Shown in pieces: positions 12,503-13,003 of a DNA stretch of 64,000 bases. This stretch comes from Escherichia coli O157:H7 (GTDB taxonomy: Bacteria; Pseudomonadota; Gammaproteobacteria; Enterobacterales; Enterobacteriaceae). The translations under genes and the position numbers were made by a program. Position 1 is the stretch's first letter; each line of letters starts with the position of its first letter. The stretch is taken from assembly GCF_013167455.1 (NCBI RefSeq), contig NZ_CP038328.1; one strand, 5' to 3'. The notes below the pieces were generated by a model. The model was not told where the DNA came from. It ran no database searches and saw only the letters and a list, made by a program, of their open reading frames with translations.

Positions 12503-13003
12503 GGCTAGAGGAGAGGACTGCTTCAGCATCATCGGCTTCGGACCAGTAAAAGAGACGCAGAAAATGCACAACGGCACCACACGCCATGCATGGATTCAGA
12601 TTACTCATGGCTCACCAGTACAGCTATAAATCGTAAAGAAAACTACAGTACGTTATACACAGAAACGTACCGTGATTCATTATTTATTGTACAGGTTCAT
12701 CGCAGCGACAATATTTTGTGATGTTTGCGTGGTGCGCCCCACTTCAGGATGCTGCAGATCTGGAAATTGCAACGGAGGAAGAAACCTCATTGCTGGAAGC
12801 CTAGAAAAAGTATCGGGTGTTGCTGAACCGTGTTGATACATCAACTGCACCTGATATTGAGTGGCCGGAAGAACCAGACACAATGTAAGCGAAAAAGAAA
12901 AACCGCAGACACGACGTATGCAGGACGTGCTGCGGTTGGCTGGTGAACTTTCGATAGTGCGAGTATTGAATGATTTCCAGCCGTTACCGATTTTACGTGT
13001 TAA

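What the first reader, a model, noticed from the sequence alone, without database searches (positions are those of the whole stretch)
12503..13003. About 500 bp with no convincing ORF between espM and dinI
Only short frames without RBS are present, but the region contains a GC-rich inverted repeat (CCGCAGACACGACGTATGCAGGACGTGCTGCGG at about 12903-12935). It may hold decayed gene remnants or a small RNA.
Basis: seen in the sequence. Interest (0 to 1): 0.25.

Follow-up and report, generated by a model that had tools for sequence, protein, structure and literature searches.

The report
Prophage gene debris plus dinI terminator
The 500-bp gap between espM2 and a dinI-like gene in this E. coli O157:H7 prophage is ordinary: it holds fragments of two dead genes and the terminator hairpin that ends the dinI transcript, with no sign of a new gene or small RNA.

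Summary
Window 12503-13003 has no credible ORF, and the inverted repeat at 12903-12935 is real (-19 kcal/mol, z = -3.4 on the minus strand).

The window is the right end of prophage Sp17 of E. coli O157:H7 Sakai, next to ssrA. About 83% of the gap can be assigned:
- **12524-12672 (minus):** the 5' end and leader of a ykgJ-like cargo gene, broken by three 1-bp deletions. It ends in a weaker second copy of the dinI-type hairpin (12644-12674).
- **12736-12888 (plus):** the last 47 codons of a tail-fibre-assembly gene (Pfam Caudo_TAP, E = 1.7e-23) with an in-frame TAG. RefSeq already annotates it as a pseudogene.
- **12889-13003 (minus):** the 3' UTR of the SOS-regulated dinI-like gene.

The hairpin follows dinI in 77 of 78 related loci, and 5 of its 10 stem pairs show compensatory changes.

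The Rfam hits to IS009 and CssrB are below threshold and are themselves built on this kind of debris. The Sakai Hfq-binding candidate list has no entry in the gap.

Verdict: already known kinds of feature, low interest.

The parts
11912..12502 (+). espM2, an intact T3SS effector gene that forms the left border of the gap
   Evidence: 196-aa ORF. Pfam IpaB_EvcA, E = 1.1e-30. RefSeq names it espM2, ECs_3485 in Sakai.
12503..12523 (.). 21-bp linker after the espM2 stop codon; origin not assigned
   Evidence: Lies outside all homology blocks found with ykgJ, tfa or dinI loci.
12524..12608 (-). 5' fragment of a ykgJ-like gene (CxxCxxCC family): a pseudogene with three single-base deletions, truncated after about 28 codons
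   Evidence: 84-86% DNA identity to the 5' end of the core gene ykgJ in about 5000 E. coli genomes. Alignment A1 shows the three 1-bp deletions. tblastn with K-12 YkgJ matches residues 1-37, E = 2e-12. Intact YkgJ hits PF03692.
12609..12643 (-). Leader (upstream region) of the ykgJ-like gene
   Evidence: Aligns with the sequence between the hairpin and the ykgJ start codon in the K-12-type locus L003.
12644..12674 (-). Second, weaker copy (hp1) of the dinI-type terminator hairpin, followed on the minus strand by UUUUCUUU
   Evidence: Arms 12645-12654 / 12664-12673 (I7). -13.1 kcal/mol and z = -2.7 on the minus strand. Aligns with hairpin 12903-12935 and with the hairpin upstream of K-12 ykgJ. 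The weak CssrB hit is anchored here.
12675..12735 (.). 61-bp junction segment of unassigned origin, between the ykgJ-type module and the tfa remnant
   Evidence: Found in only 433 genomes, always in this same context, and never under an intact gene. Homology to intact tfa genes begins sharply at 12736.
12736..12888 (+). Tail-fibre-assembly (tfa) pseudogene: the C-terminal 47-50 codons only, with an in-frame TAG at 12802-12804 in place of a Trp codon and a TAA stop at 12886-12888
   Evidence: Pfam Caudo_TAP PF02413, E = 1.7e-23, profile positions 84-130 of 131. 96% DNA identity to the 3' end of K-12 tfaD. 91% amino-acid identity to TfaD residues 138-184. PGAP annotates it as 'tail fiber assembly protein; internal stop; incomplete; missing N-terminus'.
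12892..12902 (-). U-tract (UUUUUCUUUUU on the minus strand) directly after the hairpin
   Evidence: Read from the sequence; shown in the minus-strand folds.
12903..12935 (-).
   Evidence: -19.0 kcal/mol, z = -3.4. Present downstream of dinI in 77 of 78 related loci with an alignable 3' UTR. 93% of stem cells pair, and 5 of 10 pairs change on both sides.
12936..13003 (-). Proximal part of the dinI 3' UTR, with a second hairpin (12938-12982)
   Evidence: Nearly invariant across dinI loci whatever lies beyond the hairpin. Whole 3' UTR fold: -31.3 kcal/mol, z = -3.1. Inverted repeat I1.
13004..13252 (-). DinI-like gene, intact, forming the right border of the gap
   Evidence: 82-aa ORF. Pfam DinI, E = 1.1e-18. 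ECs_3483 in Sakai.
13268..13311 (.). Two LexA-box matches (CTGT-N8-ACAG) in the dinI promoter region
   Evidence: Sites at 13268-13283 and 13296-13311. The window has 6 matches against 0.8 expected by chance.

Best explanation
The gap is non-coding mosaic debris at the cargo (right) end of lambdoid prophage Sp17, plus one working signal. From left to right it holds four pieces. First, the frameshifted 5' stub and leader of a ykgJ-like cargo gene on the minus strand. That stub still carries a weaker copy of the hairpin that separates dinI from ykgJ in intact 'dinI-hairpin-ykgJ' modules. Second, a 61-bp junction of unknown origin. Third, the last ~50 codons of a tail-fibre-assembly gene on the plus strand, killed by 5' truncation and a TGG->TAG nonsense change. 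Fourth, the 3' UTR of the dinI-like gene on the minus strand. The GC-rich inverted repeat belongs to that UTR. In dinI mRNA it forms a 10-bp stem followed at once by UUUUUCUUUUU, so it most likely acts as the Rho-independent terminator and 3'-end-stabilising stem-loop of the LexA-controlled dinI transcript, and keeps that transcript from running antisense into espM2.

Shown here: the homologies, the fold, the link between the hairpin and dinI, and the compensatory changes in the stem. Inferred: that termination actually happens in vivo, and the recombination history that joined a 'ykgJ-hairpin' module to a 'tfa-hairpin-dinI' module.
For: - **Identity of the locus:** 100% match to O157:H7 chromosomes. 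Sakai Sp17 has dinI ECs_3483, then a 501-bp gap, then espM2 ECs_3485, next to ssrA.
- **tfa remnant:**
- **ykgJ fragment:**
- **Hairpin energy and U-tract on the minus strand:**
- **The hairpin travels with dinI.** In 83 dinI loci from viral contigs, the 66-nt 3' UTR and the hairpin are conserved while the sequence just beyond the hairpin differs. At least 10 unrelated continuations were seen. The hairpin is present in 77 of the 78 loci with an alignable 3' UTR, and 51 of those 77 have >=5 T in the 8 nt after the stem.
- **Covariation:** 93.3% of stem cells pair, against 19-57% when the partner columns are slid. Five of 10 pairs change on both sides. No shuffle of 500 reaches the observed covariation score.
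- **Module variants exist elsewhere:** intact dinI-hairpin-ykgJ modules and tfa-hairpin-dinI arrangements with many different tfa truncation points. The viable phage mEp460 carries the same tfa remnant, hairpin and dinI.
- **dinI looks functional and SOS-regulated:** two LexA-box matches upstream.
- **No competing signal in the gap:** no Pfam hit for any ORF overlapping it, no promoter-like site, no coordinate inside it in the Hfq-CRAC sRNA candidate list.
Against: - No transcript-end data (Term-seq or RNA-seq) could be consulted, so termination is inferred from sequence.
- 26 of the 77 related loci have the hairpin but no U-rich tail. The hairpin may therefore matter as an mRNA-stabilising 3' structure, or simply as a module boundary, rather than strictly as a terminator.
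- 82 bp of the gap (12503-12523 and 12675-12735) have no assigned origin.
- The covariation alignment was made after removing one bulged base from four sequences. It contains related sequences, so its shuffle statistics are not probabilities.
Confidence: 0.82

Rival explanations
1. The gap encodes a small regulatory RNA on the plus strand, either an IS009-like RNA over 12617-12845 or a CssrB-like RNA ending at hairpin 12644-12674.
For: Rfam IS009 hit at 12617-12845, 105.5 bits, E = 3e-25, and a CssrB hit at 12570-12674, 26.4 bits. The junction architecture is conserved in about 350-430 genomes.
Against: Both hits are below gathering score (117 and 76). The well-aligned half of IS009 is simply tfa coding sequence. 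Full-score IS009 hits fall inside the intact genes K-12 tfaD and a Z1323 tfa, and on the tfa remnant beside ykgJ. [quoted passage not shown] The CssrB match rests only on the shared hairpin and 16 nt beside it, and about 100 model positions are missing. No promoter-like site was found. No Hfq-CRAC candidate coordinate falls in the gap. The plus-strand fold has z = -1.3. Neither hairpin has a U-tract on the plus strand.
Confidence: 0.05
2. The inverted repeat mainly serves the plus strand, as the terminator of rightward transcription from espM2 or from the phage late/tail operon. It would be a relic of the tfa gene's own terminator, not of dinI's.
For: The hairpin also folds on the plus strand (-19.4 kcal/mol, z = -2.7). 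In K-12 DLP12 a variant of the same hairpin follows the stop codon of intact tfaD with no dinI beside it. It starts 15 nt after the tfa remnant's stop codon.
Against: On the plus strand the stem is followed by UUGGCUGG, not a U-tract, whereas the minus strand has UUUUUCUUUUU. Across loci the conserved flank is on the dinI side and homology breaks on the tfa side. In DLP12 the hairpin is still followed by TTGGATG, which resembles the first bases of the dinI-side flank (TTGGCTG). The tfa gene here is dead, so nothing on that side needs it.
Confidence: 0.1
3. One of the short ORFs is a real small-protein gene. Candidates are a TfaX-like 28-aa product (12718-12804, +), the 67-aa ORF 12680-12883 (-), or the 48-aa ORF 12861-13007 (+).
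For: K-12 annotates a 61-aa 'protein TfaX' over the equivalent tfa remnant. Locus tag ECs_3484 is absent from the current Sakai record between ECs_3483 and ECs_3485.
Against: No Pfam match for any of these ORFs. They have GTG or TTG starts, and I saw no Shine-Dalgarno sequence in the upstream bases. The 67-aa ORF is antisense to a remnant, and the 48-aa ORF runs through the terminator stem. The current Sakai record and PGAP call no CDS here apart from the pseudogene. The Trp codon is hit by different nonsense changes in different lineages (TAG here, TGA in tfaX, intact TGG in mEp460), which fits neutral decay.
Confidence: 0.03

Closest known systems
Rho-independent (intrinsic) terminators at the 3' ends of bacterial and phage genes
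   Same: A GC-rich 10-bp stem with a short loop, followed at once by a U-tract on the dinI strand. It starts 68 nt after the stop codon, and its stem is kept by compensatory changes.
   Different: The stem has one bulged base and a 12-nt apical region, partly closed by a single predicted pair in the fold. About a third of homologous loci lack the U-tract. Function was not measured.
K-12 tfaX (b0563), the tfa remnant of cryptic prophage DLP12, and tfaD (b0561)
   Same: The window remnant is 96% identical to the 3' end of tfaD and 85% identical to the tfaX region. Like tfaX, it lacks the N-terminal part and has a nonsense change in the same Trp codon.
   Different: The nonsense change is TAG here and TGA in tfaX, so the two events were independent. 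The upstream junction sequence and the downstream neighbour (dinI here, appY in DLP12) also differ.
Core E. coli locus yagU-ykgJ-ecpE
   Same: Window 12524-12672 matches the ykgJ 5' end, leader and hairpin. Window 12915-13061 matches the decayed dinI remnant upstream of ykgJ.
   Different: In the core locus ykgJ is intact and dinI is decayed. In the window dinI is intact and ykgJ is a stub, and a tfa remnant with a second hairpin copy lies between them.
Rfam IS009 (RF02111) and CssrB (RF02799)
   Same: They share sequence with the tfa remnant (IS009) and with the hairpin plus ykgJ leader (CssrB).
   Different: Both score below gathering threshold here. IS009 scores fully inside intact tfa genes, so it marks tfa 3' ends rather than a specific RNA gene.
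Effector-carrying cargo regions at the tail-fibre end of EHEC lambdoid prophages, called 'exchangeable effector loci' by Tobe et al. 2006 (cited from my own knowledge, not checked here)
   Same: espM2, nleG8-2, espW and an nleG pseudogene lie between the tail-fibre genes and the prophage end, among mosaic remnants.
   Different: Nothing specific. The gap is simply the rightmost scar of such a locus.

Membership tests
Intrinsic (Rho-independent) terminator | Stable GC-rich stem-loop in the transcript | tested here: met
   -19.0 kcal/mol on the minus strand, z = -3.4, 0 of 200 shuffles as stable.
Intrinsic (Rho-independent) terminator | U-tract immediately 3' of the stem | tested here: met
   The minus strand has UUUUUCUUUUU directly after the stem. 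The plus strand has only UUGG. Among homologues, 51 of 77 loci have >=5 T in the next 8 nt.
Intrinsic (Rho-independent) terminator | Lies downstream of, and co-oriented with, a gene it could terminate | tested here: met
   The stem starts 68 nt after the dinI stop codon. It is linked to dinI in 77 of 78 loci, whatever lies beyond it.
Intrinsic (Rho-independent) terminator | Transcripts actually end there in vivo | not testable with these tools
   No Term-seq or RNA-seq data were reachable. The supplements of PMC7547250 are not held.
Tail fibre assembly protein gene (Pfam Caudo_TAP PF02413) | Significant match to the family profile | tested here: met
   E = 1.7e-23, 83.6 bits against a cut-off of 22.1, but only profile positions 84-130 of 131.
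Tail fibre assembly protein gene (Pfam Caudo_TAP PF02413) | Complete, uninterrupted reading frame | tested here: not met
   The N-terminal ~135 codons are absent and there is an in-frame TAG at 12802-12804. PGAP calls it a pseudogene.
YkgJ / CxxCxxCC family gene (PF03692) | Homology to ykgJ | tested here: met
   84-86% DNA identity over 149 bp to the ykgJ 5' end plus leader. tblastn E = 2e-12.
YkgJ / CxxCxxCC family gene (PF03692) | Intact reading frame covering the domain | tested here: not met
   About 28 codons remain, with three 1-bp deletions. The fragment ORF has no Pfam hit.
Rfam IS009 (RF02111) | Score at or above the gathering threshold of 117 bits | tested here: not met
   105.5 bits. 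Only the 3' half, which is tfa coding sequence, aligns with confidence.
Rfam CssrB (RF02799) | Score at or above the gathering threshold of 76 bits | tested here: not met
   26.4 bits, with about 100 model positions missing.
Hfq-bound prophage sRNAs of O157:H7 Sakai (EcOnc set, Tree et al. 2014) | An Hfq-CRAC peak listed at this position (Sakai 3476615-3477115) | tested here: not met
   No coordinate beginning 34766 to 34771 occurs in the supplementary files held as text. The part of Table S2 that I read (up to EcOnc33) lists one entry in Sp17, EcOnc06 at 3486349; the paper also places EcOnc01b (AgvB2) in Sp17. Repeated sequence could have hidden multi-mapping reads.

The most novel reading that the evidence does not exclude
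The debris could have been co-opted. One route is SOS-induced dinI transcripts that read through the first hairpin, run antisense across the tfa remnant and stop at the second hairpin copy (12674-12644). That would give a roughly 260-nt 3' extension or a processed 3'-UTR RNA. Another route is a plus-strand IS009/CssrB-like RNA. Either product could have a regulatory role, for example on espM2 or on tfa genes of co-resident prophages, through its extensive complementarity to them.
Probability: 0.05. Interest if true: 0.35.

Novelty: already known. Interest (0 to 1): 0.08.

Why it matters
It matters little. The result clears a suspicious 'empty' interval in a virulence-gene neighbourhood: it is recombination scar tissue plus the dinI terminator, not a hidden gene or sRNA.

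Two by-products help annotation:
- Rfam IS009 hits mark the 3' ends of tail-fibre-assembly genes or their remnants, and should not be read as evidence for an sRNA.
- The core gene ykgJ sits between a tfa remnant and a dinI remnant, so it looks like a fixed prophage cargo gene.

Tried and rejected
- **EcOnc22/23/24 and EcOnc31.** I asked whether these Hfq-bound sRNA candidates of Sakai map to homologues of this gap in Sp15 or Sp5. They do not. EcOnc22 lies between the host-specificity and tail-assembly genes, and neither fetched region matched the gap by BLAST.
- **HnrS.** This multicopy prophage sRNA (EcOnc10-12) is in Sp9, Sp10 and Sp12, within late genes, not here.
- **Transcript evidence in the literature.** Searches for ECs3484 and for Z3915-Z3918, and the supplements of PMC5331693 and PMC7547250, gave nothing. 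The only espM2 + sRNA papers are general. A search for CssrB returned only materials-science papers.
- **A shared old tfa pseudogene allele.** I first inferred that the window remnant and K-12 tfaX share one ancient nonsense mutation. The DNA alignment shows TAG versus TGA in the same codon, so I dropped that idea.
- **The 61-bp junction 12675-12735.** A dedicated search found it only in this same context, so its origin stays unassigned.
- **A terminator-like site at 12587-12571 (minus strand).** The scan flagged it, but it lies inside the ykgJ-derived coding remnant, which aligns closely with intact ykgJ. I treat it as a chance match.

Full report
**Where the window comes from.** The 611 bp around the finding match 347 complete E. 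coli genomes over at least 80% of their length (351 records match at 99% identity or more). These include O157:H7 strains and other EHEC-type strains such as O111. In O157:H7 Sakai the window is the reverse complement of the right end of lambda-like prophage Sp17, beside ssrA and smpB. Window coordinate w and Sakai coordinate s obey w + s = 3489618. The finding is the 501-bp gap between dinI-like ECs_3483 and espM2 ECs_3485. Rfam finds tmRNA at 13521-13883.

**Check of the observation.** ORF 11912-12502 (+) is espM2 (Pfam IpaB_EvcA, E = 1.1e-30). ORF 13004-13252 (-) is a DinI-family protein (E = 1.1e-18). Inside the gap the mechanical ORFs are at most 67 aa. None of the eight longest ORFs overlapping the gap hits Pfam even at E <= 1. 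The quoted inverted repeat is exactly at 12903-12935. It folds to -19.4 kcal/mol on the + strand (z = -2.7) and -19.0 kcal/mol on the - strand (z = -3.4, no shuffle of 200 as stable).

**What the gap is made of.** It breaks into four parts.

1. *A tail-fibre-assembly remnant, 12736-12888 (+).* With the in-frame TAG (12802-12804) read as Trp, the translation [51 protein letters not shown] matches Pfam Caudo_TAP at E = 1.7e-23, but only profile positions 84-130 of 131. The DNA is 96% identical to the 3' end of K-12 tfaD, and homology to intact tfa genes starts abruptly at 12736. RefSeq/PGAP already annotates this as 'tail fiber assembly protein; internal stop; incomplete; missing N-terminus'.
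2. *A ykgJ-like stub, 12524-12672 (-).* This block is 84-86% identical to the 5' end and upstream leader of the core gene ykgJ (CxxCxxCC family, PF03692) in about 5000 genomes. The window copy keeps the start codon at 12608 but has three single-base deletions and stops after about 28 codons.
3. *The dinI 3' UTR, 12889-13003 (-).* It contains two adjacent hairpins. The whole UTR folds to -31.3 kcal/mol, z = -3.1.
4. *Unassigned pieces.* These are 12503-12523 and 12675-12735, 82 bp in total. The second is found only in this same context, in 433 genomes.

About 83% of the gap is therefore accounted for.

**The inverted repeat is the dinI terminator.** On the minus strand the stem is followed directly by UUUUUCUUUUU, and it begins 68 nt after the dinI stop codon. 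On the plus strand it is followed by UUGGCUGG.

I fetched 80 dinI loci from viral contigs and added loci fetched earlier, giving 83 with sequence downstream of the dinI stop. The 66-nt 3' UTR and the hairpin are conserved, but the sequence just past the hairpin differs between loci. At least ten unrelated continuations were seen. Of the 78 loci with an alignable UTR, 77 have the hairpin. Of those 77, 51 (16 of 24 sequence variants) have at least 5 T in the 8 nt after the stem.

I aligned 18 distinct hairpin variants, including the second copy in the window and the K-12 ykgJ-upstream copy. One bulged base was removed from four sequences to keep the columns in register. In that alignment:

- 93.3% of stem cells form standard pairs, against 19-57% when the partner columns are slid.
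- 5 of the 10 pairs show changes on both sides.
- No shuffle of 500 reaches the observed covariation score.

The stem is therefore selected as a structure and belongs to the dinI module. Two LexA-box matches lie upstream of dinI, at 13268-13283 and 13296-13311. The window has 6 such matches against 0.8 expected by chance. This fits a working SOS-induced gene that needs a 3' end. Termination itself is inferred, not measured. The 26 loci without a U-rich tail show that the hairpin may also serve as a 3' stabiliser, or may simply mark a module boundary.

**How the mosaic probably arose (inference).** The hairpin at 12644-12674 is a paralogue of the one at 12903-12935.

- *The core K-12-type locus.* It reads, on the dinI strand: decayed dinI, 3' UTR, hairpin, UUCUCUUUACGAUUU..., ykgJ. 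Its downstream half aligns with window 12524-12672 and its upstream half with window 12915-13061.
- *Viral contigs.* They contain intact dinI-hairpin-ykgJ modules (L055, L079, L080) and a near-complete one (L064). They also contain many tfa-hairpin-dinI arrangements in which tfa is truncated at different points. Nine loci have exactly the window's arrangement.
- *mEp460.* This viable phage carries the tfa remnant, hairpin and dinI between its side-tail-fibre gene and integrase.

The window layout is best explained by illegitimate joining of the hairpin-ykgJ end of one module to the tfa-hairpin-dinI end of another. The ykgJ side was later truncated where the effector cassette (espM2 and its neighbours) abuts it.

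**No support for a small RNA.** Rfam gives two sub-threshold hits.

- *IS009, at 12617-12845, 105.5 bits (threshold 117).* Only the model's 3' half aligns well, and that half is tfa coding sequence. Full-score IS009 hits fall inside intact K-12 tfaD, inside an intact tfa of strain Z1323HEC0016, and on the tfa remnant between yagU and ykgJ. So the family marks tfa 3' ends. [quoted passage not shown]
- *CssrB, at 12570-12674, 26.4 bits (threshold 76).* It rests only on the hairpin and the adjacent ykgJ-leader bases. The model's terminal hairpin is the reverse complement of dinI-hairpin variant v8.

Other negative evidence:

- No sigma-70-like promoter was found in the gap.
- The plus strand of the gap is not unusually structured (z = -1.3).
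- The supplementary files of Tree et al. 2014 held as text contain no coordinate inside Sakai 3476615-3477115. The part of the candidate table I read lists only EcOnc06 in Sp17; the paper also places EcOnc01b (AgvB2) there (PMC4104026).
- HnrS (EcOnc10-12) lies in other prophages.
- Literature searches for locus tags and for espM2 with sRNA gave nothing relevant.

**Comparison with known things and verdict.** Every component is of a known kind:

- an intrinsic terminator (sequence criteria met, in vivo activity untested);
- a tfa pseudogene akin to K-12 tfaX, which has an independent TGA in the same Trp codon where the window has TAG;
- a ykgJ-type cargo-gene stub;
- the general clutter of effector-carrying prophage ends.

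The 'small RNA' reading is unsupported, and the inverted repeat has a mundane owner. Novelty: already known. Interest: low (0.08). The residual novel possibility is that read-through or antisense RNA from this debris has been co-opted for regulation. I put that at about 5%.

Noticed in passing
L003 (NZ_CP026347.1 301595-306746): 2017-2216, 2259-2588, 2634-2851: The core E. coli gene ykgJ is flanked by prophage debris. A tfa 3' remnant lies between yagU and ykgJ, and a decayed dinI remnant with the same terminator hairpin lies between ykgJ and ecpE. Intact dinI-hairpin-ykgJ modules exist in viral contigs (L055, L079, L080; near-complete in L064), so ykgJ looks like a prophage cargo gene fixed in the core genome.
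   Followed up: partly
L088 2857-3055 (K-12 tfaD), L004 1516-1714, L003 2017-2216: Rfam IS009 (RF02111) scores fully (202-228 bits) inside intact tail-fibre-assembly genes and on the yagU-ykgJ tfa remnant. The family is essentially the last ~200 nt of tfa genes, so IS009 hits in prophage-rich genomes are not evidence of an sRNA.
   Followed up: partly
window 12570-12674; L088 about 3110-3145; locus L059: The terminal hairpin of the Rfam CssrB consensus (Shigella sRNA B) is the reverse complement of one variant of the dinI terminator. Nearly the same hairpin follows the stop codon of K-12 tfaD. CssrB may therefore also derive from this tfa/dinI boundary element.
   Followed up: partly
window 12802-12804; L088 4059-4061; L003 about 2170: The same Trp codon of tfa remnants carries different nonsense changes in different lineages: TAG in the window and at the K-12 yagU-ykgJ remnant, TGA in K-12 tfaX, and intact TGG in phage mEp460. 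This points to independent decay at a mutable TGG codon.
   Followed up: yes
loci L008-L087, the first ~100 nt after the dinI stop codon: Homology between dinI loci breaks within a few bases after the terminator hairpin, into at least ten unrelated continuations. The hairpin marks a recurrent mosaic boundary in lambdoid prophages.
   Followed up: partly
window 13268-13283 and 13296-13311: Two LexA-box matches (CTGT-N8-ACAG) lie upstream of the dinI-like gene. Another lies at 17710-17725, on the recN side of the window (position inferred from L002; recN's window coordinates were not computed). The window has 6 matches against 0.8 expected.
   Followed up: partly
window 13369-13401: A perfect A5-CCCCAG-(10 nt)-CTGGGG-T6 hairpin, of the bidirectional-terminator type, lies between the dinI promoter and the 3' end of ssrA. 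The terminator scan missed it, probably because its loop is longer than 8 nt. A second hairpin at 13406-13428 (+) was flagged by the scan.
   Followed up: no
L001 (strain E2863) compared with the window and Sakai: The same espW, nleG, espM2, tfa-remnant and dinI right-end module sits next to dusA with a frameshifted integrase in strain E2863. In O157:H7 it sits directly against ssrA, with no integrase gene annotated between dinI and ssrA. The nleG-like gene (window 11079-11729) is intact here but has an internal stop in E2863.
   Followed up: no
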